A model generated the notes under the pieces. It saw nothing but the letters and a program-made list of their open reading frames with translations. It was not told where the DNA came from and did not search any database. Below, in pieces: positions 8,232 to 63,992 of a stretch of 64,000 nt of DNA. The position numbers and the translations under genes were made by a program. Where the stretch lies: the NCBI GenBank assembly GCA_958296285.1, contig OY282459.1, forward strand, positions 1,282,762 to 1,346,761, written 5' to 3'. The stretch's first letter is position 1, and each line of letters starts with the position of its first letter. Origin of the DNA: an uncultured Alphaproteobacteria bacterium (lineage in GTDB: Bacteria; Pseudomonadota; Alphaproteobacteria; JAPOUT01; G958296285).

Positions 8232-9772
8232 GCGCCCCTTTCCCTGACGCCTCCGCTTTCCGCGACATTCACAATGCAGGCAAGACGCAGATCGTTCGGC
8301 TGACGCTGCCTGCCGATTTGGAAACGCCTGTCGCCGCGATGATCAAATTGGCGGCGGGGAAGCGCGGCGCGTTCCTTTTTGAATCGGTGGAGGGCGGAGA
8401 GGCTCGCGGACGCTATTCCGTCATCGGCTTCGCGCCGGACGCCATTTGGCGATCTTACGGCGCGAGATGCGAGATCAATCGGCAGGCGGCGCGAGACCCT
8501 GACGCTTTTGAGATTTTGAAAGAGCCGCCTTTGGACGCGCTTCGCCGTTTCATCGCGGAGTCGCGTTTTGATCTGCCTGACGGTTTGCCGTCTTTGTCGG
8601 CGGGTTTGTTCGGCTATATGGGCTACGACATGGCGCGTCATGCCGAGCGTTTCGGGTCTCCGCCGCCTGACGCGATTGGCATTCCGGACAGCGTTTTCGC
8701 GCGTCCGTCTCGTCTTGTGGTTTTTGATTCGGTCAGCGACACGATGATTTGCATTGTTCGCTCGTCTCCGCGCCGGGGGCGCTCGGCTGACGAGGCTTAT
8801 GACGAAGCCTGTCGCGCTTTGCGCGAGATGCGGACGGCTTTGCAGAGGCCTCTGATGCCGAAGGAGCGCGGCGAGGATAGCCAGAGCGATGAAGGCGATG
8901 AAAGCGGCGGGGGCGGCGCGTCTTCGTCTGTTTCCATGCCGGTGCCGCGGTCCAACATGCAGCGCGCGCTTTATTTGGAGAAGGTTCGGCGCGTTAAGGA
9001 GTATATTTTCGCTGGCGACATTTTTCAGGCTGTTTTGAGTCAGCGTTTTTCGGCGTCTTTTTCGCTTTCGCCCATGACGCTGTATCGGTCTTTGCGGCGG
9101 ATAAATCCGTCTCCTTATCTTTATTATTTGGATTTTGGGGATTTTTCGGTTGTTGGCTCAAGTCCTGAGATTTTGGTTCGGCTGCGCGAGGGCGTGGTGA
9201 CGATTCGTCCGATTGCCGGGACTCGTCCGCGCGGGGGGTCGGCGGCGGATGATCTTCGCATTGGCGAGGAGTTGTTGTCGGATCCGAAGGAGCGCGCCGA
9301 GCATTTGATGTTGTTGGATTTGGGTCGGAATGATGTTGGGAGGGTATCGGAGATTGGTTCTGTTCGCGTGACGGAGCGTTTCGCGCTGCAGCGGACGTCT
9401 CATCTCATTCACATTGTTTCCAATGTTGAGGGTGTTTTGCGGCGCGGTTTGGAGGCTTTGGACGCTTTGATGGCGGGTTTTCCTGCTGGGACGGTTTCGG
9501 GCGCGCCGAAGATTCGGGCGATGGAGATTATTGATGAGTTGGAGGATGAGAAGCGGAGTTTATATGCGGGGGCGGTGGGGTATTTTTCGGCGAATGGGGA
9601 TATGGACAGTTGCATTGCCTTGCGGACGGCGTTGGTTAAGGATGGGGTGATGTATGTTCAGGCGGGGGGTGGGATTGTGGCGGATTCGGAGCCTGCTTAT
9701 GAGTATCGGGAGTCTGTGAAGAAGGCGGAGGTTTTGTTTCGGGCTGCTGAGGCTGTTGGAGGCTCCCGTTGA
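8228..9772 (+). CDS. trpE: anthranilate synthase component I
   Basis: 514 aa, chorismate-binding C-terminal domain. The last codons (GGSR-stop) lie inside repeat module X. Confidence 0.93.
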   Translation: MSAPFPDASAFRDIHNAGKTQIVRLTLPADLETPVAAMIKLAAGKRGAFLFESVEGGEARGRYSVIGFAPDAIWRSYGARCEINRQAARDPDAFEILKEPPLDALRRFIAESRFDLPDGLPSLSAGLFGYMGYDMARHAERFGSPPPDAIGIPDSVFARPSRLVVFDSVSDTMICIVRSSPRRGRSADEAYDEACRALREMRTALQRPLMPKERGEDSQSDEGDESGGGGASSSVSMPVPRSNMQRALYLEKVRRVKEYIFAGDIFQAVLSQRFSASFSLSPMTLYRSLRRINPSPYLYYLDFGDFSVVGSSPEILVRLREGVVTIRPIAGTRPRGGSAADDLRIGEELLSDPKERAEHLMLLDLGRNDVGRVSEIGSVRVTERFALQRTSHLIHIVSNVEGVLRRGLEALDALMAGFPAGTVSGAPKIRAMEIIDELEDEKRSLYAGAVGYFSANGDMDSCIALRTALVKDGVMYVQAGGGIVADSEPAYEYRESVKKAEVLFRAAEAVGGSR

Positions 9773-10070
9773 GGGGGGTTTGGGGGGGCGGCGAGCCGCC
9801 GCGGGCATCTTTTTCATAGAGAGGCATTTTGGCTTTACCCCAGGGGAACTAATGCATAGAAGCTTGAGGTGAAGGGGGGGTTGGGGGGCTTGCCCCCCAA
9901 GAAAAACCAAGCGGGCGCAAGCCCGCTACGGGCGGCGGGCTTCTCGCGCACTTGCGCTACGCGCTGCGTGCGCTTCGTTGCGCCACGCCCGCCGACCTTT
10001 TCGGGGGGGATTCCCCCCGACCCCCCCTTTCTCAAGGGGGGCTAGCCCCCCTTGACCCCCCTCAAGAGGT
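9773..10070. repeat. Repeat cluster A: module X (+) about 9786-9880, degenerate Z-like palindromes about 9905-9995, module Y (+) about 9995-10065
   Basis: Near-identical copies of X and Y recur at 17390-17547. Multiple G6-N-C6 micro-palindromes (ggggggattcccccc, aaggggggctagccccccttg, ggggggcttgcccccc). No coding potential. Confidence 0.85.
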
Positions 10071-10084
10071 GCTATAGTCGCCCC

Positions 10085-10672: not shown

Positions 10673-11694
10673 GCGAAAACCTCAAAAAAACCCTCGCGCT
10701 TATCGCGTCAGGCGAAAAACTCGCGCCCGCCCAAGCCGAAACCGCCTTCCAACATCTCATGTCCGGCGAAGCCAAAGACGCCGAAATCGGCGCGCTCCTC
10801 ATGGGACTCCATATGCGCGGCGAAACAACAGACGAAATCGCCGCCGCCGCCAAAATCATGCGCGCCGCCGCCACGCCCGTCCAAGCCCCGAAAAACGCCA
10901 TAGACCTCTGCGGAACAGGCGGCGATATGAAAGGAAGCCTCAATATCTCCACCGCCGCGTCTTTTATAGTCGCCGCCTGCGGCGTCCCGGTGGCGAAGCA
11001 CGGAAACCGCGCGCTCTCGTCTCAGTCAGGCGCGGCGGACGTCCTTTTGGCGCTCGGCGCTGAAACCGCCCTCCCGCCCCAGACCATCGCCCAATGCATC
11101 AAGGAAACGGGCATCGGCTTCCTCTTCGCGCCCTCGCACCACCCCGCCGCGAGACATGTCGCGCCGGCGCGCGCGGCGCTCGGCATCAGGACAATCTTCA
11201 ACCTCCTCGGACCTCTCTGCAATCCCGCCTTCGTCAAACGGCAACTGATCGGAGTCTTCGCGCCCGAATGGCTGACGCCCCTCGCCGAAGTGCTGCGCGA
11301 TTTGGGAAGCGAGCGCGTTTGGATCGTTCATGGCTCGGACGGGATGGACGAAATCACCCTTTCCGGCGAAACCCGCGCCGCCGAACTCAAAAACGGCAAA
11401 GTCCGCCCCTTCACGATCACGCCCGAAGAAGCAGGACTTCCTCGCGCTCCATCGGAGAGTCTCAAAGGCGGGACGCCTCAACAGAACGCGGCGGCTCTGC
11501 GGAGACTGTTGGACAGCGAAAGCGAAAACGGGGCTTATAGAGACGCTGCCGTTCTGAACGCGGCGGCGGCGCTCGTCATCGCGGAGAAGGCAGGAGATTT
11601 GCGCGAAGGCGCGGCGCAAGCCTCCGAATCTCTTTCCAGCGGACGCGCCGCCGACACCTTTCACGCCTTTCGCAATTTCACGAAGAAGCCATGA
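10669..11694 (+). CDS. trpD: anthranilate phosphoribosyltransferase
   Basis: Motifs DLCGTGGD and SSQSGAADVL, length 341 aa. Confidence 0.93.
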   Translation: MSENLKKTLALIASGEKLAPAQAETAFQHLMSGEAKDAEIGALLMGLHMRGETTDEIAAAAKIMRAAATPVQAPKNAIDLCGTGGDMKGSLNISTAASFIVAACGVPVAKHGNRALSSQSGAADVLLALGAETALPPQTIAQCIKETGIGFLFAPSHHPAARHVAPARAALGIRTIFNLLGPLCNPAFVKRQLIGVFAPEWLTPLAEVLRDLGSERVWIVHGSDGMDEITLSGETRAAELKNGKVRPFTITPEEAGLPRAPSESLKGGTPQQNAAALRRLLDSESENGAYRDAAVLNAAAALVIAEKAGDLREGAAQASESLSSGRAADTFHAFRNFTKKP

Positions 11695-12503
11695 GGCATA
11701 TCCTCCAAACAATCCAAACCCGCAAGCGCGAGGAACTCGCCCGCGCGCGAAAAGACGCCCCCCCATCCGCGTTGGAAGCGCGGACAGGCGAAGCTCCCGC
11801 AATCCGTCTTTTCCGTGAATCTTTGGAAAAGAGGCGCGAGACAAGCCCCGCGATCATCGCCGAGATTAAAAAGGCGAGTCCTTCCAAGGGCGTCATCCGC
11901 GAGGATTTTGACCCCGCCGCTCTCGCGGAAAATTTGGAGAAAGGGGGCGCGGCGTGTTTGTCGGTGCTGACGGATAAGGATTTTTTTCAAGGCGCGGCGG
12001 AGCATCTTGGAGAGGCGAAAGAGGCGACCGCGCTCCCAATCTTGCGCAAAGATTTTCTGATAGACCCCTATCAGGCGCTAGAGAGCCGCGCTTGGGGCGC
12101 GGACGCCGTGTTGTTGATTATGGCTCTGCTGGAGCGCCAGCAAGCCGCCGAGATCGCCGCCGCCGCGAAGGAATGGGAGATGGACGTCCTCGCCGAAGCG
12201 CATGACGAGAAAGAGTTGGAAGAGGCGCTGCGCTTAGAACCCGACATGATCGGCATCAACAATCGGAATCTCAAAACTTTTGAAACCTCGCTGGATGTGT
12301 CTTTGCGTCTTGCGCGAGAGATTCCGCGAGACGCGCTCGCCATCGCCGAGAGCGGCATTGAGAGCCATGACGACATTTTGCGTCTTCAAGAGGCGGGGAT
12401 CCATTGCTTCCTCATCGGCGAAACTTTGATGCGCGCCGATGATCCGGCGCGGAAGATTCGGGAGTTGTTAGGAGAAGAGGATGAAGAAGACAAGCCATCT
12501 TGA
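11691..12503 (+). CDS. trpC: indole-3-glycerol-phosphate synthase
   Basis: IIAEIKKASPSKGVIREDFDP motif; follows trpD. Confidence 0.92.
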   Translation: MRHILQTIQTRKREELARARKDAPPSALEARTGEAPAIRLFRESLEKRRETSPAIIAEIKKASPSKGVIREDFDPAALAENLEKGGAACLSVLTDKDFFQGAAEHLGEAKEATALPILRKDFLIDPYQALESRAWGADAVLLIMALLERQQAAEIAAAAKEWEMDVLAEAHDEKELEEALRLEPDMIGINNRNLKTFETSLDVSLRLAREIPRDALAIAESGIESHDDILRLQEAGIHCFLIGETLMRADDPARKIRELLGEEDEEDKPS

Positions 12504-14614: not shown

Positions 14615-15985
14615 TCACAGCAGAAAATACGCCGCCAAGCCCAAAAAGGCGAAAAAGCCGACAACATCCGTGACTGTCGTCAAAAACACGCCGGACGAAA
14701 TGGCGGGATCGGCGCCGATTTTCTCTAATGCCAGAGGGATCAGAATTCCAGCGAGCGCGGCGGTCAGCATATTGACAATCACGGCGGCGAAAAGAACCAT
14801 CCCAAGCGCGAAATTCTTAAACCACGCGCCTCCAATCACCCCCAAAATCACGGCAAGCGATACGCCATTCAGAACTCCCACGCCGATCTCGCGCATGATG
14901 ATCCTGCGCTGATTCGCCGCGACAAGCTCGCGAGTCGCCAGCGCGCGCACGGCGACGGTGAGAGTCTGAATGCCCGCCACGCCTCCCATGGACGCCACGA
15001 TCGGCATCAGAACCGCCAGCGCCACCATTCCGGCGATCGCGTCCTCAAAAAGCGCGATGACGACAGACGCCAAAATCGCCGTCATCAGATTGACGAAGAG
15101 CCATAAAAAGCGTCTGCGCGCCGATTCCAGCACCGTGCCGGAGAGTCTGTCGCGTCCGACTCCGCCGAGCCTCTTGATGTCTTCGCTCGCTTCTTCGGTG
15201 ATGACTTCCACGATGTCGTCCGCCGTGATCATGCCCATCAGCATGCCGTTCTGATCCACGACGGGCGCGCTGACCAGATTATATCGGCGGAAGGCTTCGG
15301 CGACATCTTCGCGGTCTTTATGGGCTTCTATCTTGAGAGGCTCGCCCTGCATCAGGCTGTTCAGAGACTCTTCGCGCTTGGCGCGGACGAGGCGGCTCGT
15401 CAAGACGCTTCCGATGAGTCTCCATGTCGGGCTGACGATATAGATTTCGTAGAAATCCTTCGGGAGTTCGGCGCTTTGGCGCAGATGGTCTATGACGCGT
15501 CCTACGCTCCAGAAGGCGGGGACGGCGACCAGATCGCGCTGCATGAGGCGTCCTGCGCTGTCTATCGGGTAATCCAGTCCGCGCTCAATATCGGAGCGCG
15601 CGCGGAGGGGAACGCGATCTAGGATATTTCTTCGGCGGGTTTCGTCCAGCCCTTCCACGAGGGCGAGCGCGTCATCGGAGGCGATTGTGGCGAGGGCGGG
15701 CGCGAGTTTTTCGGGGGCGAGGAGCGGGAGGATATCGGCGAGGACGCCTTCTTCCAGTTCCGAGAGGATTTCGGGCTTGAGTTCGTCATTGAGGAGGGTG
15801 ATGAGTTTGTGTCGTTCTTCGGGTTTGAGGAGTTCTAGGATTTCGGCGGCGTCTGCGGCGTGGAGTTCGTGGATTTGGTTTTGGAGTTTCGCGCGATGTT
15901 CCGCGGTGATGGCTTCGCGCGTTTCTTGGAGGATATTTGGGACGGGCGTTTCGGTGGGTTCCGTGGTGTGGGGGGGATTAGACAT
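14615..15985 (-). CDS. mgtE: magnesium transporter MgtE
   Basis: 456 aa, with MgtE N-domain, CBS pair and a C-terminal TM domain containing PIVASMGGVAGIQT-like motifs. Confidence 0.9.
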   Translation of the reverse strand: MSNPPHTTEPTETPVPNILQETREAITAEHRAKLQNQIHELHAADAAEILELLKPEERHKLITLLNDELKPEILSELEEGVLADILPLLAPEKLAPALATIASDDALALVEGLDETRRRNILDRVPLRARSDIERGLDYPIDSAGRLMQRDLVAVPAFWSVGRVIDHLRQSAELPKDFYEIYIVSPTWRLIGSVLTSRLVRAKREESLNSLMQGEPLKIEAHKDREDVAEAFRRYNLVSAPVVDQNGMLMGMITADDIVEVITEEASEDIKRLGGVGRDRLSGTVLESARRRFLWLFVNLMTAILASVVIALFEDAIAGMVALAVLMPIVASMGGVAGIQTLTVAVRALATRELVAANQRRIIMREIGVGVLNGVSLAVILGVIGGAWFKNFALGMVLFAAVIVNMLTAALAGILIPLALEKIGADPAISSGVFLTTVTDVVGFFAFLGLAAYFLL

Positions 15986-16096
15986 ACGCCGCGCCTTTTT
16001 TGCTTTTTTGTCTGTGGCGTATATTTAGCCTATGGGGGCTGATTTATAAAAGCCCCCGACTCTTTTGGATCGGGGGCGAGTTTGTGAGATTTTGTT

Positions 16097-16426
16097 CTAG
16101 GATGCTAATTTGAGAAGGATTGCGCCTGTCAGAGTGAAATTCGCTATCATGAAGGTGATGGTGACTCCGAACATCCATTTTAGCAGGCGCATGTCGGCTT
16201 GGACTTCTCCGAAGCGTTTTTCCATGTCTATTCTGAGTTCTCCGATCTGCGCGTTCATATCGGCGCGGAGTTCTCCGACCCGTTCTTCCACGTTCCGAAG
16301 CCGTTCTTCTATGTTCCGAAGCCGTTGCTCATCGCGGTTGGCTTCCAGCGCTTCTATAGCGGCGGTGGCTTTGTGATCGCTGACTTTCGCTTCTTTGAGG
16401 GCATCATAGACTGCGACGAGGCTCAT
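16097..16426 (-). CDS. DUF1640-like coiled-coil protein with C-terminal membrane anchor
   Basis: Heptad-like repeats (LRNIEERLRNVEERVGELRADMNAQIGELRIDMEKRFGEVQADM), then LLKWMFGVTITFMIANFTLTGAIL hydrophobic tail. Internal nucleotide direct repeat ttccgaagccgttcttc x2. Confidence 0.6.
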   Translation of the reverse strand: MSLVAVYDALKEAKVSDHKATAAIEALEANRDEQRLRNIEERLRNVEERVGELRADMNAQIGELRIDMEKRFGEVQADMRLLKWMFGVTITFMIANFTLTGAILLKLAS

Positions 16427-16489
16427 GGTTTATCTCCTTATGGTTGTGTTTTTGTAGCATTTTTGGTTCTTCTGCCGCAATCTTTAGAA

Positions 16490-16650
16490 GAAAGAAAAGG
16501 GGGGTGTGGGGGGTCGGAGACCCCCCGCGAAAAAGGGGGGATCGGGGGGATTCCCCCCCGAAAAGCGCGTGGGTGGGGTGGGGAAAAGAGCATTTGCGAG
16601 CGAAGCGTAAGCGTAGCGAGCAAATGCGACCCCACCCACGCGCCCCCTGC
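16490..16650. repeat. Repeat cluster B: G6/C6 micro-palindromes plus a module Y fragment (about 16500-16560) and module Z (- orientation, about 16565-16645)
   Basis: The Z copy gcgcgtgggtggggtgggg...gcatttgcgagcg...cgagcaaatgcgaccccacccacgcgcc is the reverse complement of 17302-17393. Z is itself an imperfect ~90-nt palindrome. Confidence 0.85.
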
Positions 16651-16672
16651 TCGCAGGAGCTACTGATTCAGA

Positions 16673-17131
16673 TCAAAGATCGCCAAGCCTGCGCCGAAAC
16701 ACTTCATCAAACTTTTCTAATCTCTCCTTGAACCAAGCATATTGCGCGCATCTGTGGTTCATATTTTCCCAATCAGCTTCCTCTTCCCAGCTTTGGGTAA
16801 TAGATGGGAATCCCCATTGCAGTGGTGGAGGTGTGCCAATTTCCCTCTCAATGGCTTCTTTATCTGCATGCAGTTGGTTAAAACATTCCTTAGCGTAAAG
16901 CATGTCGGTGTCGGGGACAGGAAAACTTTTGCCATAGATAGAAAACCTAACAGCTACCTTGCGCGGCGGCGTCTTATAAAAACACGCCCATATGCGAAAG
17001 CCTGCTCTCCCCATAGAGAATCCTAGAGTGCTGCCAGACGACCGACAACGCCCGCGCCCAATATGTGAGTCAGACGCTCTGAGGCACTTAAGCAAACCTT
17101 GCCAATAGAGGCGGTGTTCTTCTTTAGACAT
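16673..17131 (-). CDS. hypothetical protein, DUF4268-like; low-GC (~47%) islet gene
   Basis: 152-aa ORF with a clean start 18 nt downstream of the tRNA-Leu 3' end. GC is far below surrounding DNA, and the ORF sits between inverted Z elements. Confidence 0.55.
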   Translation of the reverse strand: MSKEEHRLYWQGLLKCLRASDSHIGRGRCRSSGSTLGFSMGRAGFRIWACFYKTPPRKVAVRFSIYGKSFPVPDTDMLYAKECFNQLHADKEAIEREIGTPPPLQWGFPSITQSWEEEADWENMNHRCAQYAWFKERLEKFDEVFRRRLGDL

Positions 17132-17149
17132 TTGTCATTTCCGCAAAAA

Positions 17150-17236
17150 TGGTGCGGTCGAGAAGACTCGAACTTCCACGGGGTTGCCCCCACAGCGCCC
17201 TCAACGCTGCGCGTCTACCTATTCCGCCACGACCGC
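17150..17236 (-). tRNA. tRNA-Leu (anticodon GAG), 87 nt with long variable arm, CCA encoded
   Basis: Reverse complement GCGGTCGTGGCGGAATAGGTAGACGCGCAGCGTTGAGGGCGCTGTGGGGGCAACCCCGTGGAAGTTCGAGTCTTCTCGACCGCACCA folds as a cloverleaf with anticodon loop TTGAGGG. Confidence 0.85.
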
Positions 17237-17246
17237 ATCCAAAACA

Positions 17247-17275
17247 CAATTAGCAGAAATTAACCAACCCCTCAA
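17247..17275 (-). promoter_or_regulatory. putative sigma70-type promoter for tRNA-Leu (-35 TTGAGG, 17-nt spacer, -10 TAATTG)
   Basis: Read on the minus strand immediately upstream of the tRNA 5' end; hexamer spacing is canonical. Sequence-only inference. Confidence 0.3.
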
Positions 17276-17279
17276 CCTC

Positions 17280-17547
17280 GCTAGAAATCTTGCGAACAGG
17301 GGGCGCGTGGGTGGGGTCGCATTTGCTCGCTCGCTACGCCACGAGTGGCTTCTCTTCGCTCGCAAATGCTTTTTTCCCCACCCCACCCACGCGCTTTCGG
17401 GGGGATTCCCCCGAACCCCCTTTCTCAAGGGGGGCTAGCCCCCCTTGACCCCCCTTCACCTCAAGCTTCTATGAATTAGTTCCCCCTGGGGCAAACCCAA
17501 AATGCCTCTCTATGAAAAAAATGCCCGCGGCGGCTCGCCGCCCCCCC
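17280..17547. repeat. Repeat cluster C: module Z (+, about 17302-17393), module Y (+, about 17393-17455), module X (-, about 17451-17547)
   Basis: X(-) is the reverse complement of 9786-9880 with few mismatches. Y is a direct copy of 9995-10060. X abuts and extends into the cysH stop codon. Confidence 0.85.
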
Positions 17548-18312
17548 TTAACGGGAGCCTCCATGAATCCCGCACTCCTCCTTCTCTAAACCACCCCATC
17601 TACCATCACGATACGAACCCCCCGAACCAACAGAAGCCGTGCAAGGAACACACCCTATAGACAAATACCCACGCTTCACCAACGGATGAACAACCAAACT
17701 ATGCCGCTCAACATAAGAACCAAGAGCCTCCTGATCCCAATCCACAAGAGGATTAATGGAAAACCGCGCCACGCTCCCCGCCATCTCCCGAAACTCTATC
17801 GCCTCCAAAATCGCCCGACTCGCCGTCTGAAAACGCTTCCGACCCGTGATCACCGCCTCAAATCCCCCCAACGCCCGCCGCAACGGCAAAACCTTCCGAA
17901 AATGACAGCAAGCGTCAGGATCCTCGCTCCAAAGAGAACCATCCGAATCCAACCGCGCCCGATCCACAGGATCAGGACCAATGGAACGCAAATCCGTCAA
18001 ACCCAGCCGATCCTGCAATAAATCACGATAGCGAAGAGTCTCCGGAAACAACTTCCCCGTATTCAGAAAAATCACGGGAACAGACGGATCAATCTCCGAA
18101 ACCATATGCAGCAAAACCACCGACTCCGAACCAAAAGACGAAACCACCGCAATCCTGCCCGGAAAAACCTCCTTGATCATCGCCTCAAGAAGAGGCTTGC
18201 CGGACAGCGCATATTCACGCCGCAACATCTCAAGACGCGCCGCCGCCTCGGCAGGAACCTCCCCCGAAGCGCGAGGCATCGGAATCTCGGCGCGATTCTC
18301 TAAACCAGCCAT
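17548..18312 (-). CDS. cysH: phosphoadenylyl-sulfate/adenylyl-sulfate reductase (thioredoxin-dependent, Fe-S type)
   Basis: PAPS-reductase fold (SFGSESVVLLHM), CC...CxxC cysteine pairs (ACCHFRKV, CVPCT) and C-terminal ECGIH motif. The coding strand is extremely G+T-rich. Confidence 0.88.
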   Translation of the reverse strand: MAGLENRAEIPMPRASGEVPAEAAARLEMLRREYALSGKPLLEAMIKEVFPGRIAVVSSFGSESVVLLHMVSEIDPSVPVIFLNTGKLFPETLRYRDLLQDRLGLTDLRSIGPDPVDRARLDSDGSLWSEDPDACCHFRKVLPLRRALGGFEAVITGRKRFQTASRAILEAIEFREMAGSVARFSINPLVDWDQEALGSYVERHSLVVHPLVKRGYLSIGCVPCTASVGSGGSYRDGRWGGLEKEECGIHGGSR

Positions 18313-56482: not shown

Positions 56483-56517
56483 TTCAATCGGACAATCCCA
56501 AGCGCGTTGGGCAGGGG

Positions 56518-56591
56518 CAGGAGTGGAGGGACTCGAACCCCCAACCCCCGGTTTTGGAGACCGGCGCTCTAACCAGTTGAGCTACACTCCT
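56518..56591 (-). tRNA. tRNA-Trp (anticodon CCA); 3' CCA not encoded
   Basis: Reverse complement AGGAGTGTAGCTCAACTGGTTAGAGCGCCGGTCTCCAAAACCGG...CACTCCTG. Typical tuf-tRNA-Trp-secE-nusG context. Confidence 0.85.
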
Positions 56592-57782
56592 TCAGGCAAG
56601 CACCTTGGATACCACGCCCGCGCCGATCGTCTTGCCGCCTTCGCGGATGGCGAAGCGGAGCTTCTCGTTCATCGCGATGGGCGCGATGAGTTCCACTTCC
56701 ATTTGGGCGTTGTCGCCGGGCATGATCATCTCCGTGCCTTTCGGGAGGGTGATCGTGCCTGTGACGTCGGTCGTGCGGAAGTAGAACTGCGGACGATAAT
56801 TGCTGAAGAACGGCTTATGCCGTCCGCCCTCCTCCTTATTGAGGATATAGGCTTCGGCTTTGAACTTGGTGTGCGGCGTGACTGTCCCCGGCGCCGAGAG
56901 AACTTGTCCGCGCTCCACGGCTTCGCGCTCCACGCCCCGCAGCAGCACGCCGACATTGTCTCCCGCCTCGCCCTGATCCAGAAGTTTGCGGAACATTTCC
57001 ACGCCTGTGCAGGTCGTCTTGCTCGTATCTTTAAGCCCGACAATCTCAATTTCCTCGCCGACCTTGACCACGCCCTGCTCAATGCGCCCCGTCACGACCG
57101 TCCCGCGCCCCGATATGGAGAAGACGTCTTCTATCGGCATCAGGAAGGGCTGATTTTTCGGGCGATCAGGCTGAGGAATCGTGGAATCCACGGCTTCCAT
57201 CAATTTGAAGATGGAGTCTTTGGCGTTTTCGCCATCCTTGCCTTCCAGCGCTTGGAGCGCCGAGCCTTTGATGATCGGGATGTCGTCCCCCGGGAACTCG
57301 TAATTGGAGAGAAGCTCGCGCACTTCCACTTCCACCAGTTCCAGCAATTCGGGATCGTCCACCTGATCCACTTTGTTCAGATAGACGACAAGGGCAGGCA
57401 CGCCGACCTGTCGCGCGAGGAGGATATGCTCGCGCGTCTGCGGCATCGGCCCGTCGGCGGCGGAGACCACGAGAATCCCGCCATCCATTTGCGCCGCGCC
57501 TGTGATCATGTTTTTGACATAGTCGGCATGTCCCGGGCAATCCACATGGGCATAGTGGCGTTTTTCGGTTTCGTACTCCACATGGGCGGTGGAGATGGTG
57601 ATTCCGCGCTCTTTTTCTTCCGGCGCGTTGTCTATCTCCTCATAGGCGGAGAATTCCGCGCCGCCTTTCTCAGACAGCACTTTGGTGATCGCGGCGGTGA
57701 GGGTTGTTTTGCCGTGATCCACATGGCCTATCGTTCCGATGTTGCAGTGCGGTTTATTGCGCTGGAATTTTTCTTTCGCCAT
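56592..57782 (-). CDS. tuf: elongation factor Tu
   Basis: [32 protein letters not shown], 396 aa. Confidence 0.98.
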
Positions 57783-57834
57783 GATGTCTCCTCGTGGTTG
57801 GCGTTTGACGTGGTTCCTTCACGGAGCGGGTGAA

Positions 57835-57905
57835 GGGAATCGAACCCTCGTCTTCAGCTTGGAAGGCTGCGGCTCTACCATTGAGCTACACCCGCCGTGT
57901 GAAAG
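57835..57905 (-). tRNA. tRNA-Gly (anticodon UCC)
   Basis: Reverse complement GCGGGTGTAGCTCAATGGTAGAGCCGCAGCCTTCCAAGCTG...TTCGATTCCCTTCACCCGCT. Confidence 0.8.
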
Positions 57906-57970
57906 CGCGCTTCCTCCTTGTTTTCCGCGTTTCTTCGCGCCATGGCTTGGGCGTCCTGTGTGGTGGAGGG

Positions 57971-58055
57971 GGTTGGATTCGAACCAACGTAGGCATAGCC
58001 AACGGGTTTACAGCCCGTCCCCTTTAACCGCTCGGGCACCCCTCCTTTCACGCGA
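57971..58055 (-). tRNA. tRNA-Tyr (anticodon GUA), long variable arm, CCA encoded
   Basis: Reverse complement GGAGGGGTGCCCGAGCGGTTAAAGGGGACGGGCTGTAAACCCG...GGTTCGAATCCAACCCCCTCCACCA. Confidence 0.85.
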
Positions 58056-58253: not shown

Positions 58254-61200
58254 TCAAAATGCTCCTGCAACGCCAAAACGAATGAAACGATCCGAAGAGC
58301 CTCTGATATGCCCCGCTTCCCTATGCCAGCCCGCCGAAATCTTCATAGAAACCCCATCCGACAACGGCTTGACATAAAGCGCCTCCAAGTGAATCGCCCG
58401 CCCGGAAGGTTTTAAAGACCCCTCTGCCCTCTGATCAATGAGAGACCCGTCTCGGCGGCGGGAAACGGCGTAATCCAAGGCGAAGCCGCCCTTCTCCACC
58501 CGCAAAGGCTGACGCGCGCGCAGGGCGATCCAATCTTCCTGCGAGAAAACGCCGCGCTTGCCCAAGCCCGCCGTGAAAGCGCTCATCACGATCGGGCCTT
58601 TTAACGACAAAAGCGAAACGCCGTCAATCTTCGGCGACATGAAGCCCGCCTCGGCGCTGATAAAGAGATGCCAGCCGCGCGCGAGCGCCTTCTCATGCGA
58701 GACGCCAAAAAACCAATTTTCTCGCGCGCCGTCCGCATGGAACGCGCCATCGCTCCAGCCCCCCAAAAGCCGATCTTCCTCGCGCAAAAGTCCGGCATGA
58801 AGATTCCAGCCCTCCCAAGCGAAATGCGCCAGCAAAGCGTATGAGGCTTTTTCTTCGCGGCTCGCGTCCCGCGCGTGATCCTGCCAGAGAGGCTTGCCTG
58901 AAAAAAGACCAAGATTCATAGAATAATCGCCGCCCTCCCAAGACAGCCCCGCGCCCACGCCATCGGCGATCAAAGAAAAATGCGCCGGAGACCTCTCGCG
59001 CCAAAGAGGCGACCGCGTCTCCGCCGCCATCAGAGCGGCGGGATGCTGAATGCCGAAAACCCGCGCCCCCAAAAGACGATAAGGCTCAACGCGGCGCTTC
59101 GCGCCGAGCGGTCTCAGAAAATCCCCCATCGCGTCAGGCGCGGCAAGGCTGAAATAACGACCAAGAGACGAATAAAAGGGCGCGCTCAACGCGTCAAACC
59201 GCGCGATGATCCTGCCCCGCAAAGCGCGGGCGAGACTGTCGCCGAGAGCCGGCGGCGCGACAAAGAAACTCTCCGCCGACAAAAAGGACGCTCTTGAGCC
59301 GCCCGCCCCCGCCGCCCCGCTCATGGAAGTCGCGCCGACAGGACGAGTCGCGGCGTCTATGTCTAAAAGCCCATGCCCGTAAATGTCGCTGTCGGCATAG
59401 ATGCCGGAACTGTCCGCCGTCTGCAGCAGACGCCATGCCAATTCCGGCGCGCCCATCGTGTCGCCGAAGGCTTCCATCAGGATCGCCAAAGCGCCCGCCA
59501 CATGCGGCGCGGCGAAAGAGGTGCCTTGCACAAGAACATCCGCGCGATCCGTGCCTTTCGCCGACACGCCTTCTCCGAAAGCGGCGAGACACCACTCCTT
59601 CGCATGACCGCATTTGTGATAGTTCGGAATAAGAGCCCCTGCCGTGTAGCGGGTTCTCGCTTCATTCAGAACCCTCCGCAGGGCGACAACGGCGAGGATC
59701 AGAGGCCTGTTCCTGTCCGCGCCGAGAAGATCGGGGAAATAGAAGGGCGTGTCGGAGAAGAGTCGGGGATGATCTTCATCCCAGCCGGGCCCTATAATCA
59801 TCCCTTCAGGGTTTCGAATATCCTCTGCGATATTCCCTGCGGAATAGACATAGACCGTCCTGTCCTCTTCGGGCGTATCATTTTGGCGGAAGACCTCATA
59901 ATAGTTGATGCTCGGGTTATTGATTCTTGCCTTTATCCTCGCTATCTCGCTTTCGGTGGCGGTCTCATAGTCGGCGATCACAATTTGCGTGATACCGTCA
60001 AAGAAGAGGATAGACTGGCTGACATTGACGATCTTCACATGATTTTGGAAATAGGCGAGACCGCTGGTGCTGGCCGTTGTTCCTGAATGGAGGAGAATCT
60101 TGGCGTTGAAAGCGATTCCATGAAAATCGGTGAGGCTGCCGCCGGCATCCCCCCTCTTCGCCGCGACAACGCCGCTCACGTGATTCCCATGCAGCAAAGT
60201 GATGCCGCTGTTCATGCCCACCAAGATTTCGCAATCTGTCGCGCTCGCGACCGTGCCGGCGGCAGGGCAATTCCTCACGCGGATCAGATCGGTATAAAGA
60301 CCATCGCTCGCCTGCGCATCGGTCAGAAGCGTCCGCCCTGCAGGAAGGCGGAATTGTTGGGCTGTGATCGTCGTTTCCATGGTGACGGGATCGGTGTTCG
60401 TTTCGCCTATCGCGCAATTGGTCGTTGTCGGCGTGGTGACGTCGGCGGGATTGAGCGCCGCGCCGGTGCAATTGTCCGCCGGCAGATAATATCTGTCCAC
60501 GCCCAACACTCCCCTGTCATGGGCGACGGTGAGCCTGCCGGCATAAGCGTTCACGAGAGAGGCGTCCCAGAGATGTCCCTCCAGCACGCCGACCGTCTGC
60601 CCCGCGCCGGTGAAGCCTCGCGCATAGGCTTCGGCGGCGCCGGACGCCTCAAAGCCGGGCTGCGTGCGATATTCCTGCGTCCTCCAAAAAACCGCCGAGC
60701 GAGAGAGCGTAGGCACGGTGATGCTCCAAACCTTCTGCGTGGCGTGTTTTGTCAGCGTGAAGCCGCCTAGAGTCGTGAGATCGCCCACGGTGAAGGTTCC
60801 CGTCCCGGTGAAAAGATTGATGACCGTCCCTGAGGCGGTGCTGGAGGGAAGGCTTACGCGGAGATTCCCCTTCAACGTCACATTCGCCGCGCCGAAATCA
60901 AGAAGCGCGGTCGCGCCTGACGGAAGGACGCGAATCTGAAAGGTCAGTTCGCCGCCGTCATTTTGCAAAAAAGTCTCCAAACCCTGAATCGCGAGCCTGC
61001 TGCCCATGATCCGAAGGTTCAGATCGCCGCTGTTGGTGAAACTGTCGCCCGTGCCGCCGCCGAAATTGGCATTGGCGGTCAGAGTCATGCGGGCGTCCGC
61101 CATATTGGTGACCGTGTCGCTGCCCGCGCCGAGGTCAAAGCCGCCGATGAAAGCGCCGTGATTGTTAAAAACATCCGCCGCGCCGCTCGCCGTGATGCTG

Positions 61201-63992
61201 GAGGAGCCGGCGTCCAAAATGCCGCGATTCGTGATTGTCCCCTTCCGATTGCCTGTGATCAAGACAGGATAGTCTCGCCTCTCGCCCGCTGGAATCTCTA
61301 TCGTGTAATCGCCGAGCGTGAAGAAGTAAGCGCTGCCGCGCGGGTTCTTCATCAGCGTCCCGCCCCGCACAGTGAGATTCGCCTGATCAATGCCGAATGA
61401 GGTTGAAGCGAAAAACAGCCGCAGCACAGGCGCTGTCCCGGTGAAGTCGCCCGTGAGAACATCCAGCTCGCCGCCTGCGAAATTGAAAAACGCGCCTTGG
61501 AAATCCACGAACTCATATCTTGTCGGCAGAGTGTCAATATCAATATCCCGCAGATCAAAAATCAACTTGCCGCCGGCATTCTGCATGAAAAGTCCCAAAT
61601 TTGACACAACAATGCTCCTCATGCGGAGAGCCACGCTGCTCGGCTTGAAAATGAGCCTTCCTGTATTGTTGATACTGTCAAAATCGTCTGCGCCGAACGC
61701 AAGACCGCCCGAGACCGTCATGACTCCGCCAGCCTCGTTCAGCAGATTGTCGTTTCCTGGGCCGAACTCCACGACCGATGAGATTGACATAATGCCGCCG
61801 GACTTGTTCTCAAGCCTGTCGTCCCCGGTGTCAAAATCCACGCCGGAGGAGATCGTCATCATTCCGCCGTCTTCGTTCCGCGCGAGATCGTTCCCGCCAG
61901 CCAACTCAAAAATGCCGCTAAAAGTTCCGTGATTGATCAAATGATCCTCCGAATTTCCAGAGCTCGTCAGATCGCCGGTGAGCGTCCCGCGCACCGTGAT
62001 CCGCGCGCGCCGAGGAGAAGGGACGGTGATGTCAAGAGCGCTGGTCTCGCCTAACGGAATCGTCTTAGTGAAATCCGGCGTGAAGAGAAGCAGATTGCTG
62101 CCTGTCGACAATACGCCGTTTTCTGCCGTCAGACTGTCCGCGCTGATCGTCCCTGTGCTTCGTAAAAGAGTGATTGTCGTCAGCGTGTCGGGAATCGTCC
62201 CCGTTTTGACCTCCAGCGTTCCGGCGAGCGTCAGCGCCGCGCTTCCGAAATCCACATAGGCGTCGTCGGCGGGCGGCGTGGAAAGGTCTCTTTCCGTCAG
62301 ATCAAGAATCAGCGCGCCGCCCGCCCTTTGCGTGAAGGTTTCCAAACCCGAAACGGCAAGAGCCGGATCGCCGCTAAAAATCTTAAAAGTCACAGTTCCG
62401 TCATTCCTAAAACTGTCGCTCCCTGATCCGAAAGTGATGCCCCCATCAAAACTCATCATGCCGCCCGCCCTGTTCCGCAGATTGTCGCTGCCGCCTCCCA
62501 AATTGAACTCTTGATCCCATGTTCCGTAATTATCCACCGTGTCATCGGCGCTCCCGGCGGTGATCCCGCCATTGAGCGTGCCGCGAATCGTGATTGTCGT
62601 CTTGCGATTGCCGGAGACACTGATACTCGCGCTGCGGGTCGTGCCGACAGGAATCTCTATCTCCAAGTCCGGCGCGAAGGTTCTTATCGTGGAGTCCGTG
62701 CCGTGCTCCTCCAGCCGACCGCCTTGAACCGTCAGACTGTCTGTCGTGATCGTCCCGGAACTTTGGAAAAGATTAATCGCCCCCAGCGTTTCGGGAACCG
62801 TCCCCAGATTGACTTGGAGCGTCCCGGCGAGCGTGATCGTGGAATCTCCGAAATCCACGACGATGCCGTTTGGATTCGCCGCGAGATCCACCGAGCTCAA
62901 ATCAAAAATCAGAGTGCCGCCGCCATTTTGCGCCAAAATCTCCATATTGCTGAGCGCGAAATTGCTGTCCAGAAAAAAGGTCAGAGTTCCGTTGTTGGTG
63001 AGATTGTCGGTGCCGCCTCCCAAATCGGAAGCGCCGGCGAGACTCACCGCGCCATTGTTCGTCAATCTGTCGCTGCCGTCGCCTAGATTGATATTGCCGC
63101 TCATGCTGCCGCCCGCTTGAATCGTGATCATGTCGGCTTCCTCCGATCCGATGACGCCGCCATTAAGCCGTCCCGCCACCTGAATTCGTCCGGCGCGTCC
63201 GTGAGGCACCCGCACCGCTTCGGTTCTGGTTGTCGCGGCGGCGACGGTGAGATCGTAATTCGGATCCAGCGTCAAACTGAAAACTCCGCCGGAGACCGAA
63301 AAATCATAGTCCCCGATAATGGAAAGGCCTGTCGTCCTGATCGCGCCCGAACTGCGGAAGAGATTGACGATCCTCCTCATGCGCGTCCAAGACGCCCAAT
63401 CCACCTGCAGCGTCCCTTCAAGGGTGAGCGCCGCGCTTCCGAAATCCACGACCGCGCCCGAGGGGAGGCTCGTCAGATCAATGTCAAAGACGAGCCTGCC
63501 CGTTGAGGTCTGCCGAAAAACCTCCAAGCCGCTTATCCCGAAATTTTCCTCCGAGATTCGCAGGGTCAGAGTTCCGCTGTTCGTCAGAGCGTCTGACGAT
63601 CCGCCGCCAAAGTCGGAACTCCCGACCAAAGTCGTTCTGCCGTTATTCGTGAATCTGTCATTCCCGTCTCCGAAAGAGAGAGTGCCGACCATTTCTCCGT
63701 TTCTGACCACTGTCGCGCGATCCGCCTCGCCCGCCCCCATAATGTTGGCGGCGAGCGTTCCGAGAACCTCTATTGTGCCCTCCTGTCCTTGAGGCACGGT
63801 GATGGGGAGCGTCCGAGAATCCCCCGCCGCCACCGTGAACGAAAAGGAAGGGGCAGGCGGGGGCGTCACCGGCGGAGAGGGGGGCGAAGGCTGAGACGGC
63901 GAAGGCGTCCCGCCGCCTCCATCACCGCCGCCGCTCGTATCGCCTCCGCCGCCGCCCCCGCTGCACGCCCCTAAGACGCAGACCAGAGCCAA
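58254..63992 (-). CDS. large surface lipoprotein-type autotransporter: lipobox signal, ~1100-aa beta-helical repeat passenger, S8 subtilase-like domain, C-terminal beta-barrel translocator
   Basis: N-terminus MALVCVLGAC (lipobox) plus Gly/Pro-rich linker. Repeated ~150-aa modules (LTNNG..SLAGASDLGGG.DNLTNNGTLTF). S8 His motif LLHGNHVSGVVAA and Ser motif GTSFAAPHVAGALAIL. C-terminal autotransporter barrel ending ...RFGVAGAF. Confidence 0.8.
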   Translation of the reverse strand: MALVCVLGACSGGGGGGDTSGGGDGGGGTPSPSQPSPPSPPVTPPPAPSFSFTVAAGDSRTLPITVPQGQEGTIEVLGTLAANIMGAGEADRATVVRNGEMVGTLSFGDGNDRFTNNGRTTLVGSSDFGGGSSDALTNSGTLTLRISEENFGISGLEVFRQTSTGRLVFDIDLTSLPSGAVVDFGSAALTLEGTLQVDWASWTRMRRIVNLFRSSGAIRTTGLSIIGDYDFSVSGGVFSLTLDPNYDLTVAAATTRTEAVRVPHGRAGRIQVAGRLNGGVIGSEEADMITIQAGGSMSGNINLGDGSDRLTNNGAVSLAGASDLGGGTDNLTNNGTLTFFLDSNFALSNMEILAQNGGGTLIFDLSSVDLAANPNGIVVDFGDSTITLAGTLQVNLGTVPETLGAINLFQSSGTITTDSLTVQGGRLEEHGTDSTIRTFAPDLEIEIPVGTTRSASISVSGNRKTTITIRGTLNGGITAGSADDTVDNYGTWDQEFNLGGGSDNLRNRAGGMMSFDGGITFGSGSDSFRNDGTVTFKIFSGDPALAVSGLETFTQRAGGALILDLTERDLSTPPADDAYVDFGSAALTLAGTLEVKTGTIPDTLTTITLLRSTGTISADSLTAENGVLSTGSNLLLFTPDFTKTIPLGETSALDITVPSPRRARITVRGTLTGDLTSSGNSEDHLINHGTFSGIFELAGGNDLARNEDGGMMTISSGVDFDTGDDRLENKSGGIMSISSVVEFGPGNDNLLNEAGGVMTVSGGLAFGADDFDSINNTGRLIFKPSSVALRMRSIVVSNLGLFMQNAGGKLIFDLRDIDIDTLPTRYEFVDFQGAFFNFAGGELDVLTGDFTGTAPVLRLFFASTSFGIDQANLTVRGGTLMKNPRGSAYFFTLGDYTIEIPAGERRDYPVLITGNRKGTITNRGILDAGSSSITASGAADVFNNHGAFIGGFDLGAGSDTVTNMADARMTLTANANFGGGTGDSFTNSGDLNLRIMGSRLAIQGLETFLQNDGGELTFQIRVLPSGATALLDFGAANVTLKGNLRVSLPSSTASGTVINLFTGTGTFTVGDLTTLGGFTLTKHATQKVWSITVPTLSRSAVFWRTQEYRTQPGFEASGAAEAYARGFTGAGQTVGVLEGHLWDASLVNAYAGRLTVAHDRGVLGVDRYYLPADNCTGAALNPADVTTPTTTNCAIGETNTDPVTMETTITAQQFRLPAGRTLLTDAQASDGLYTDLIRVRNCPAAGTVASATDCEILVGMNSGITLLHGNHVSGVVAAKRGDAGGSLTDFHGIAFNAKILLHSGTTASTSGLAYFQNHVKIVNVSQSILFFDGITQIVIADYETATESEIARIKARINNPSINYYEVFRQNDTPEEDRTVYVYSAGNIAEDIRNPEGMIIGPGWDEDHPRLFSDTPFYFPDLLGADRNRPLILAVVALRRVLNEARTRYTAGALIPNYHKCGHAKEWCLAAFGEGVSAKGTDRADVLVQGTSFAAPHVAGALAILMEAFGDTMGAPELAWRLLQTADSSGIYADSDIYGHGLLDIDAATRPVGATSMSGAAGAGGSRASFLSAESFFVAPPALGDSLARALRGRIIARFDALSAPFYSSLGRYFSLAAPDAMGDFLRPLGAKRRVEPYRLLGARVFGIQHPAALMAAETRSPLWRERSPAHFSLIADGVGAGLSWEGGDYSMNLGLFSGKPLWQDHARDASREEKASYALLAHFAWEGWNLHAGLLREEDRLLGGWSDGAFHADGARENWFFGVSHEKALARGWHLFISAEAGFMSPKIDGVSLLSLKGPIVMSAFTAGLGKRGVFSQEDWIALRARQPLRVEKGGFALDYAVSRRRDGSLIDQRAEGSLKPSGRAIHLEALYVKPLSDGVSMKISAGWHREAGHIRGSSDRFIRFGVAGAF

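What the first reader, a model, noticed from the sequence alone, without database searches (positions are those of the whole stretch)
16430..17236. Low-GC islet immediately downstream of tRNA-Leu(GAG), bracketed by inverted Z palindromes
A 152-aa DUF4268-like ORF at ~47% GC starts 18 nt after the tRNA-Leu 3' end, the classic integration position for genomic islands. It lies between Z(-) at 16565-16645 and Z(+) at 17302-17393. No integrase remains. This may be the remnant of a tRNA-targeted integration, or cargo mobilised by the Z elements.
Basis: partly seen in the sequence, partly recalled or inferred. Interest (0 to 1): 0.5.

Follow-up and report, generated by a model that had tools for sequence, protein, structure and literature searches.

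The report
Strain-specific gene slot beside tRNA-Leu
A small, low-GC, horizontally acquired gene sits in a one-gene slot between an ancestral tRNA-Leu gene and a lineage-specific hairpin repeat, and a sister strain carries an unrelated foreign gene in the same slot, so this is a fairly ordinary variable accessory locus with no integrase signature.

Summary
ORF152 (16673-17131, minus strand) starts 18 nt after tRNA-Leu(GAG). Its GC is 48% against 59% for the window. It is a full-length stand-alone DUF4268 protein. It lies between inverted palindromes.

The palindromes are modules of a larger mosaic hairpin repeat. This repeat occurs at three spacers in the window. It appears in none of the 84 loci fetched from other organisms.

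Four more distant relatives have cysH-tRNA-Leu-mgtE with only 44-177 bp after the tRNA. The whole 1.16 kb between tRNA-Leu and mgtE is therefore a lineage-specific insertion.

A sister strain about 98.5% identical in flanking genes carries a GST gene in place of ORF152. Homology breaks at the base after the tRNA's CCA. It resumes at a shared small "tail" hairpin just past each stop codon. The GST fragment is 88% nucleotide-identical to a 48.5%-GC organism sampled under a neighbouring ENA accession.

I found no integrase, no repeat of the tRNA 3' end and no attC motifs.

Best reading: this is a recombination-prone slot bounded by the tRNA and a hairpin repeat, into which foreign fragments were captured and exchanged. 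The acquisition is well supported. The mechanism is inferred. Interest is modest.

The parts
17150..17236 (-). tRNA-Leu(GAG). It is ancestral at this position and forms the left boundary of the variable slot.
   Evidence: ARAGORN and Rfam at 50.1 bits. It is identical in the sister strain. The cysH-tRNA-Leu adjacency is conserved in L004-L012, L015, L085 and L086.
16673..17131 (-). ORF152. A stand-alone DUF4268 protein and the strain-specific low-GC cargo.
   Evidence: Full-length alignment to remote homologues. AlphaFold2 pLDDT 89.4. Matches the C-terminal half of PADLOC PDC-S11 at E 2e-10. Only its own 113-aa annotation was found among 5.8e9 proteins.
16540..17149 (.). [not shown]
   Evidence: blastn breakpoints are window 17150 = L001 11140 and window 16539 = L001 12121. 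Alignments. No remnant of either cargo lies in the other strain's slot.
16644..16661 (-). 'Tail' small hairpin (AGCTCCTGCGAGCAGGGGG on the minus strand). It is the right boundary of the cargo and is shared with the sister strain's slot.
   Evidence: The same motif follows the GST stop in L001 at 11879-11893.
16565..16643 (.). [not shown]
   Evidence: Fold energy -29.4 kcal/mol, z -4.36.
16498..16564 (.). B-like module of G-run/C-run palindromes, copy O.
   Evidence: blastn to the trpE-trpG copy gives 82% over 68 nt. Alignment.
17286..17302 (+). Tail hairpin of copy C. It faces the tRNA, 51 nt upstream of the tRNA 5' end.
   Evidence: (I2).
17303..17394 (.). [not shown]
   Evidence: (z -4.49).
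17395..17547 (-). Modules B' and A of the composite repeat, downstream of cysH. Module A contains the cysH terminator-like hairpin.
   Evidence: Module A is 91.6% identical over 119 nt to the trpE-trpG copy, and B is 93.8% over 64 nt. Terminator-like site at 17541-17527.
17548..17562 (-). Last codons and stop of cysH (GGSR*). They are encoded by the left end of the repeat (GGAGGCTCCCGTTAA), and the same 15-mer ends trpE.
   Evidence: Sequence. Alignment.
16097..16426 (-). ORF109, a coiled-coil protein with a C-terminal membrane helix. It is the older part of the inserted region, shared with the sister strain and absent from distant relatives.
   Evidence: No family hit passed a curated cut-off.
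9758..10075 (+). [not shown]
   Evidence: It is structurally different in the sister strain.
17548..18312 (-). cysH, the conserved flank.
   Evidence: Pfam PAPS_reduct at E 4.5e-40. It is 98% identical in the sister strain.
14615..15985 (-). mgtE, the conserved flank. It lies directly after tRNA-Leu in distant relatives.

Best explanation
**Shown**
- ORF152 is a horizontally acquired, strain-specific, stand-alone DUF4268 gene.
- It occupies a one-gene slot between the 3' end of the ancestral tRNA-Leu(GAG) gene and a lineage-specific hairpin repeat unit ('U', made of a small tail hairpin plus the large Z hairpin).
- The ancestral arrangement is cysH-tRNA-Leu-mgtE.
- In the recent ancestry of two sister strains, the spacers on either side of the tRNA gained a mosaic of nested palindromes (modules A, B, REP-like G6CTAGC6, U) and a coiled-coil gene (ORF109).
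- Foreign DNA has entered the same tRNA/U junction at least twice. This strain has DUF4268. The sister strain has a 3'-truncated GST fragment that is 88% nucleotide-identical to a ~48% GC organism from a neighbouring ENA accession.

**Inferred**
- The junction is defined by the hairpin repeat and the indispensable tRNA, not by a tRNA-specific integrase.
- The palindrome-rich spacer is break-prone and recombination-prone. Foreign fragments were joined in by illegitimate end-joining.
- Variants are then exchanged between strains by homologous recombination in the conserved flanks, like a 'minimal mobile element'.
- With only 18 nt and no promoter between the tRNA and ORF152, the gene is most likely transcribed by read-through from the tRNA promoter and ended or stabilised by the Z hairpin.
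- The protein is a binding module of the kind fused to type IV restriction nucleases. Without a nuclease domain its role (sensor, partner or leftover) is uncertain.
For: **Acquired**
- GC 48.4% and GC3 46% against 59% for the window.
- ORF152 is absent from the sister strain's slot. No second protein matched it in a library that holds that strain's CysH, MgtE and GST.
- Relatives L004, L012, L085 and L086 have tRNA-Leu followed by mgtE after 62, 177, 110 and 44 nt. They have no repeats there.

**Slot**
- Homology between the two strains breaks at the first base after CCA. It resumes at the tail hairpin 10-13 nt after each stop codon.
- Both cargos are co-oriented with the tRNA and both have low GC (48.4% and 46.4%).

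**Foreign fragment**
- The GST cargo matches L087 at 88% nucleotide identity over 677 bp. The match runs from 37 nt upstream of the ATG to 35 nt before the stop. Its GC matches that contig (48.5%).
- L087 has no tRNA within 5 kb of its GST gene.

**No integrase signature**.

**Repeats are dynamic and structured**
- There are three repeat loci in 64 kb.
- Seven hairpin units fall into three stem types. Six have perfect outer stems of 10-15 bp; the outer stem of the seventh (window T) is imperfect.
- Every repeat locus differs between strains whose flanking genes diverge by only 0.4-2.8%.
- The sister strain's bracket arms are 94-100% complementary across three aligned blocks of 22-77 nt.

**Real gene**
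- Homology spans the whole length.
- pLDDT 89.4.
- PDC-S11 C-terminal half at E 2e-10.
- DUF4268 accompanies GmrSD nucleases (PMC4619093, PMC5714182) and the MdgA/MdgB defence proteins (bioRxiv 10.1101/2025.02.28.640651), and is fused to an HNH nuclease in homologue P0010.
Against: - Only two genomes of this lineage exist in the collections searched. The direction and number of events cannot be resolved.
- Two independent captures at the same nucleotide-level junction are unexpected for random illegitimate recombination. They hint at a site-specific step that I could not identify.
- The flanking genes show no raised divergence, which a large imported block would produce. Whole-bracket replacement is therefore parsimonious but not demonstrated.
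- End-joining, competence and hairpin-processing genes could not be checked because only 64 kb of the genome is available.
- No expression data exist. The promoter scan found no sigma-70-like site anywhere in 15900-17700.
Confidence: 0.55

Rival explanations
1. Hairpin-element-mediated capture or mobilisation. The U unit (tail plus Z) would be the recognition site of an enzyme encoded elsewhere, such as a RAYT/IS200-type HUH transposase or another structure-specific recombinase. Cargo would be inserted at the tail end, or the inverted pair would act as a MITE-bounded composite transposon.
For: - Both cargos end at the same tail hairpin.
- The two flanking copies are of the same type within each strain and differ between strains.
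- An 'empty' head-to-head tail-tail pair exists in the sister strain's trpE-trpG spacer.
- Stems differ in sequence, and six of seven units keep perfect complementarity.
- The repeat loci turn over quickly.
Against: - tRNA-Leu inside the bracket is at its ancestral site, so the bracket was not transposed in as a unit.
- No target-site duplication was seen.
- No transposase was found in the window.
- The GST cargo is a truncated gene fragment with no recombination site of its own.
- There are no attC R''/R' motifs at the boundaries (read from the sequences).
- Only three loci are available, so mobility of U with cargo is untested.
Confidence: 0.2
2. Decayed classical genomic islet. A tyrosine-integrase element would have integrated into the 3' end of tRNA-Leu. 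It would later have lost its integrase and its distal att repeat through deletions, leaving one gene.
For: - The position is immediately 3' of a tRNA gene.
- The GC is atypical and the gene is absent from relatives.
- Divergence starts at the tRNA end, as expected if attP regenerated the tRNA.
Against: - There is no direct repeat of the tRNA 3' end above the shuffle expectation.
- No integrase or fragment of one lies in the window or in the sister locus.
- The sister strain's occupant is a 0.7-kb sub-genic fragment, too small for an integrative element.
- Two different single-gene remnants trimmed to the same two boundaries would need two coincident decay histories.
Confidence: 0.12
3. The gene is ancestral and was lost differentially, or ORF152 is a spurious or decaying ORF with no function.
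For: - The public annotation calls only 113 aa.
- Pfam matches only the C-terminal half.
- No promoter was found.
Against: - Four independent relatives with conserved synteny lack any gene there.
- GC3 is 46% against about 65-70% for host genes.
- Full-length homology with 11 invariant residues and a confident fold argue that the ORF is intact.
Confidence: 0.05

Closest known systems
Minimal mobile elements (MMEs) of Neisseria (Saunders & Snyder 2002; Snyder et al. 2007, as defined in PMC3082526)
   Same: Two conserved flanks hold different single-gene cassettes in different strains. No mobility gene is present. Exchange is presumed to occur by homologous recombination of the flanks.
   Different: One flank here is a tRNA gene and the other is a hairpin repeat. 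The cassette is enclosed by inverted copies of a mosaic repeat. One cassette is a truncated gene fragment. Natural transformation is unknown in this organism. Only two strains were compared.
tRNA-associated genomic islands and islets (tyrosine-integrase type)
   Same: It lies immediately 3' of a tRNA gene, has atypical GC, is strain-specific, and carries a defence-associated domain as cargo.
   Different: It has no integrase and no att direct repeat. It is about 0.5-0.7 kb of cargo only, and the break lies after rather than within the tRNA.
REP / BIME / REPIN extragenic palindromes (e.g. PMC3116915) and neisserial intergenic mosaic elements
   Same: The repeats are extragenic. They consist of nested imperfect palindromes arranged in alternating orientation as mosaics. 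They include a G6CTAGC6 core very like the Pseudomonas fluorescens GI REP core GGGGGCTTGCCCCC. Inverted doublets occur, and the loci are polymorphic between strains.
   Different: The Z hairpins are 67-92 nt, longer than typical REPs. Genome-wide copy number is unknown (three loci in 64 kb). No RAYT gene was seen. The repeat overlaps the last codons of cysH and trpE.
Integron gene cassettes (ORF plus attC)
   Same: A promoterless single ORF with very short leaders is followed by an imperfect palindromic element. Alternative ORFs occupy the same position.
   Different: There are no R''/R' (RYYYAAC/GTTRRRY) core sites, no intI or attI, no array, and the palindrome is shared rather than cassette-specific in its tail.
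DUF4268 (PF14088) accessory domain of GmrSD-type type IV restriction enzymes; PADLOC candidate PDC-S11; MdgA/MdgB
   Same: The Pfam score is above the gathering threshold. The protein aligns to the C-terminal half of PDC-S11. One homologue is fused to an HNH nuclease.
   Different: ORF152 is the domain alone (152 aa) with no nuclease or NTPase partner in the neighbourhood. The nearest homologue is only 40% identical.

Membership tests
tRNA-targeted integrase genomic island | Insertion adjacent to or within the 3' end of a tRNA gene | tested here: met
   The cargo starts at CCA+1, and the ORF starts 18 nt later.
tRNA-targeted integrase genomic island | Integrase (tyrosine or serine recombinase) gene or remnant in the island | tested here: not met
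   None in the 1.16-kb insert, in the sister locus gene table, or among the other window ORFs scanned.
tRNA-targeted integrase genomic island | Direct repeat of the tRNA 3' end (att) at the distal boundary | tested here: not met
   Best matches are 12/20 and 16/30, equal to the shuffle means of 12.4 and 16.5. The longest exact match is 8 nt.
tRNA-targeted integrase genomic island | Atypical composition and absence from relatives | tested here: met
Minimal mobile element | Conserved flanking genes with different whole-gene cassettes in different strains | tested here: met
   DUF4268 here and GST in the sister strain, both between tRNA-Leu/cysH and ORF109/mgtE. The GST lacks its native 3' end. 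Only two strains were compared.
Minimal mobile element | Incorporation by homologous recombination of the flanks, with no mobility genes | not testable with these tools
   The absence of mobility genes is met. The recombination route is inferred only. Flank divergence is not raised.
REP/BIME/REPIN | Short imperfect palindromes confined to extragenic space, in mosaic or inverted arrangements | tested here: met
   The left end overlaps 4 codons plus the stop of two genes.
REP/BIME/REPIN | High copy number across the genome | tested here: inconclusive
   Three loci in 64 kb, and the same three in 24 kb of the sister strain. The whole genome is not available.
REP/BIME/REPIN | Cognate RAYT (Y1 HUH transposase) gene flanked by the repeats | not testable with these tools
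   Not in the window. The rest of the genome could not be reached.
Integron cassette | attC with R''/L''-L'/R' sites (RYYYAAC ... GTTRRRY) at the cassette 3' end | tested here: not met
   Read directly from the sequences. No GTTRRRY lies at either cargo boundary. No attC covariance model was available.
Integron cassette | Adjacent intI integrase and attI | tested here: not met
MITE-bounded composite transposon | Two copies of one element flanking the cargo | tested here: met
   Inverted copies.
MITE-bounded composite transposon | Target-site duplication, and occurrence of the same unit at other sites | tested here: inconclusive
   No duplication was recognised. The enclosed tRNA is at its ancestral site, which argues against arrival as a unit. 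Other sites cannot be tested.
DUF4268 (PF14088) | Score above Pfam's gathering threshold, with domain-wide homology | tested here: met
   32.1 bits against a cut-off of 27. Full-length alignment to P0008, P0010 and P0013.
PADLOC PDC-S11 candidate defence protein | Full-length match, including the N-terminal roughly 170 residues | tested here: not met
   Only profile positions 175-312 of 318 are matched.

The most novel reading that the evidence does not exclude
The tail-plus-Z hairpin unit would be the recombination site of an integrase-independent gene-capture system. A structure-specific enzyme encoded elsewhere would cut at the tail end and insert foreign fragments there. Inverted pairs of the unit would form brackets that co-evolve and could invert or move the enclosed DNA, here an essential tRNA plus a cargo gene.
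Probability: 0.12. Interest if true: 0.7.

Novelty: new variant of a known kind. Interest (0 to 1): 0.35.

Why it matters
Genome annotators tend to equate "low-GC gene next to a tRNA" with integrase-mediated islands. Here the comparative evidence points to a slot defined by a hairpin repeat, filled with sub-genic foreign fragments in a small (about 1.7 Mb) uncultured alphaproteobacterial genome. One fragment most closely matches an organism sampled under a neighbouring ENA accession.

If the hairpin unit proves to be an active capture site, it would be a new route of gene acquisition in reduced genomes. If it does not, the locus is a tidy example of a minimal-mobile-element-like variable slot outside Neisseria. 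It would also add a new lineage-specific family of mosaic palindromic repeats. The practical gains are small: a corrected start for ORF152 (152 aa rather than 113 aa) and a marker locus for telling strains apart.

Tried and rejected
- **Source genome look-ups.** Exact-protein look-ups for ORF152, CysH and the 113-aa annotation found no contig on record. The sister genome was reached instead through cluster members.
- **Genome collection.** The scan with CysH found no close relative; the best hit is 64% identical. The source species is not among the representative genomes.
- **Metagenome and viral scans.** Two metagenome scans and one viral scan, for the A-module 25-mer and the Z-core 25-mer, gave 0 hits.
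- **Repeat motifs in other loci.** They are absent from the 84 loci fetched from other organisms.
- **Plasmids.** Only the tRNA matches. ORF152 has one weak plasmid homologue at 29.5% identity and no phage homologue.
- **Rfam.** No family matches the hairpins. The sub-threshold Clostridiales-2 hits are G/C-run artefacts.
- **att repeat search.** Negative.
- **attC-type and target-site-duplication signatures.** None were seen on inspecting the junctions.
- **tRNA-anchored one-sided homologous import of the GST.** Not supported, because the nearest donor-like contig has no tRNA within 5 kb of its GST gene.
- **Import signal in the flanks.** Raised flank divergence was looked for and not found.
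- **Fold searches.**
  - Foldseek against PDB and BFVD gave nothing significant.
  - The only PDB sequence hit belongs to the HNH part of a fused homologue.
  - The afdb50 library was unavailable.
- **Possible terminal inverted repeat.** The repeat's left end and its tail are about 70% alike, but G-runs make this unconvincing, so I dropped it.

Full report
**1. The observation**

tRNA-Leu(GAG) lies at 17150-17236 on the minus strand (Rfam 50.1 bits). A 152-aa ORF at 16673-17131 (minus) begins 18 nt after the tRNA's 3' end. Its GC is 48.4% and its GC3 is 46%, against 59.0% for the window. It ties for the lowest GC3 among 57 ORFs picked across the window; the other lowest ORF is probably an artefact of my ORF picking.

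Pfam places it in DUF4268 at 32.1 bits against a cut-off of 27, with E 1.3e-7. Only the C-terminal half of the profile is matched.

The two "Z" palindromes are real. Their 15-nt stem occurs four times against 0.2 expected. Each folds into a long hairpin of about -29.5 kcal/mol with z about -4.4. The two copies are inverted relative to each other (51 nt at 94% and 44 nt at 95% complementary). The inverted similarity extends over about 180 nt, 16478-16658 against 17288-17478.

**2. What the palindromes are**

The same sequences occur a third time in the window, in the trpE-trpG spacer at 9758-10075. Aligning six copies from the window and from a sister strain shows a composite element with a consistent polarity. 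Its parts, in order, are:

- A left end that supplies the last codons and stop (GGSR*, GGAGGCTCCCGTTRA) of both cysH and trpE.
- Module A, about 119 nt, which includes a terminator-like hairpin.
- A G6CTAGC6 REP-like palindrome.
- A small hairpin or a G/C-run module B.
- The large Z hairpin.
- A small "tail" hairpin (TCYTGCGARCAGGGGG).

Rfam has no family for these sequences. They are absent from the plasmid collection, from two metagenome scans and one viral scan, and from the 84 loci fetched from other organisms.

They behave like a lineage-specific REP/BIME-type mosaic family (compare PMC3116915). The G6CTAGC6 core closely resembles the Pseudomonas fluorescens GI REP core.

**3. Comparative evidence**

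The source genome is not on record as DNA. Cluster look-ups led to a sister genome, ENA ERZ19489113, a 1.72-Mb contig fetched as L001 and L002. It is about 98.5% identical over 24 kb of collinear housekeeping genes.

Read in the direction of transcription, the sister locus is:

The window reads:

Homology between the two strains runs through the tRNA and stops at the first base after CCA (window 17150 = L001 11140). The tail hairpin is shared again 10-13 nt after each stop codon. Continuous homology resumes at window 16539 = L001 12121. Neither cargo has left a remnant in the other strain's slot.

More distant relatives keep the surrounding synteny. Their CysH is 59-66% identical to the window's. 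In them tRNA-Leu(GAG) is followed by mgtE after 62, 177, 110 and 44 nt (L004, L012, L085 and L086). None has repeats or extra genes there.

Parvibaculaceae genomes have about 8 kb of ordinary metabolic genes there instead, with no integrase.

The whole 1.16 kb between tRNA-Leu and mgtE is therefore a lineage-specific insertion. ORF152 is its youngest, strain-specific layer.

**4. Origin of the cargos**

ORF152 has only its own public annotation (113 aa) among 5.8 billion proteins. An exhaustive profile-free search found eight weak relatives, the best at 40% identity. Its donor is unsampled.

The sister strain's GST belongs to a widespread family that is 72-85% identical across cyanobacteria and Alphaproteobacteria. 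Its DNA is 88% identical over 677 bp to contig L087 from a neighbouring ENA accession. That contig's GC of 48.5% matches the cargo's 46.4%.

The similarity starts 37 nt upstream of the ATG and ends 35 nt before the stop, so the native 3' end of the gene is missing. L087 has no tRNA within 5 kb of its GST gene.

The sister strain's cargo is therefore a captured sub-genic fragment of foreign DNA, not a cassette with its own recombination site. It was not imported through homology to the tRNA.

**5. Tests of the classical explanations**

- No direct repeat of the tRNA 3' end exists between the tRNA and mgtE. The best matches equal the shuffle means.
- No integrase or transposase is present. The annotated sister locus covers window positions of about 4.6-28.3 kb. 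Other window ORFs are CTP synthase, enolase, lipoyl synthase, NusG and a large subtilase-domain protein. From ORF sizes I infer that 28-57 kb is the ribosomal-protein and rpoBC cluster.
- The boundaries carry no integron core sites and no target-site duplication (read).
- The tRNA inside the bracket is at its ancestral site, so the bracket did not arrive as a composite transposon.

**6. What remains odd**

Every repeat locus differs between two strains whose flanking genes differ by 0.4-2.8%. The repeats therefore turn over much faster than the genes. The cargo junction coincides with a repeat terminus.

**7. Best explanation**

The slot between the tRNA and the tail hairpin is a recombination-prone junction in a palindrome-rich spacer. 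Foreign fragments were joined in by illegitimate recombination. Alleles are exchanged among strains by homologous recombination of the flanks, as in the minimal mobile elements of Neisseria (definition in PMC3082526).

A single replacement of the whole bracket would account for the concerted hairpin types. This part is inference, and I give the full statement a confidence of 0.55. The acquired, strain-specific status of ORF152 taken alone I would put at about 0.9.

The main rival, at 0.2, is an active role for the hairpin unit through an enzyme encoded elsewhere. A decayed integrase islet gets 0.12.

**8. The protein**

Homology to stand-alone and fused DUF4268 proteins covers residues 5-151 and includes 11 invariant positions. 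AlphaFold2 gives pLDDT 89.4 and pTM 0.85 over the whole chain. The 152-aa start is therefore better than the public 113-aa call.

The protein matches only the C-terminal half of the PADLOC candidate PDC-S11. The literature describes DUF4268 as an accessory, probably DNA-binding domain of GmrSD type IV restriction enzymes (PMC4619093, PMC5714182), and it is also present in the defence proteins MdgA and MdgB (bioRxiv 10.1101/2025.02.28.640651). One homologue is fused to an HNH nuclease.

No nuclease partner lies nearby, so the function of the stand-alone protein is uncertain. With only 18 nt between the tRNA and the ATG, it is probably transcribed by read-through from the tRNA promoter. This is an inference.

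**9. Verdict**

The finding is real and its "acquired" reading is right. The integrase-remnant reading is not supported. The "mobilised by Z" reading is unproven.

I classify it as a new variant of a known kind: a variable accessory-gene slot beside a tRNA, here bounded by a new mosaic hairpin repeat. Interest is 0.35.

Noticed in passing
[not shown]
   Followed up: partly
window 17548-17562 (-) and 9758-9772 (+): The repeat's left end, GGAGGCTCCCGTTRA, encodes the last four residues and the stop (GGSR*) of two unrelated genes, cysH and trpE. The element therefore appears to have replaced the native 3' ends of both coding regions.
   Followed up: partly
window 16097-16426 (-); L001 12234-12751: ORF109 is a coiled-coil protein with a C-terminal membrane helix and internal 33-nt and 21-nt direct repeats. 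It is a single gene here but two tandem related ORFs (110 and 61 aa) in the sister strain. The window lacks about 194 bp, which looks like a repeat-mediated deletion or fusion. The gene is absent from distant relatives and has no family assignment.
   Followed up: partly
window 16673-17131 (-): The public annotation of this gene (P0001) starts at Met40 and gives 113 aa. Homology and the structure prediction both support the 152-aa start.
   Followed up: yes
L087 5001-5792 (ENA ERZ19488966 contig_1): A 48.5%-GC organism from a neighbouring ENA accession carries a GST that is 88% nucleotide-identical to the sister strain's cargo. This suggests gene flow between members of one community. The organism was not identified.
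   Followed up: partly
window 11500-11999: A patch of 8.8% divergence from the sister strain stands out against a background of about 1.5%. It lies in the trpD/trpC region and probably marks a homologous recombination import.
   Followed up: no
window 58254-63992 (-): A very large ORF of 1912 aa whose only Pfam hit is a subtilase (Peptidase_S8) domain, at residues 1268-1541.
   Followed up: no
window 56516-58045: tRNA-Trp, tRNA-Gly and tRNA-Tyr lie here with none of the hairpin repeats nearby. The repeat association is therefore specific to tRNA-Leu and is not a general feature of tRNA genes in this window.
   Followed up: yes
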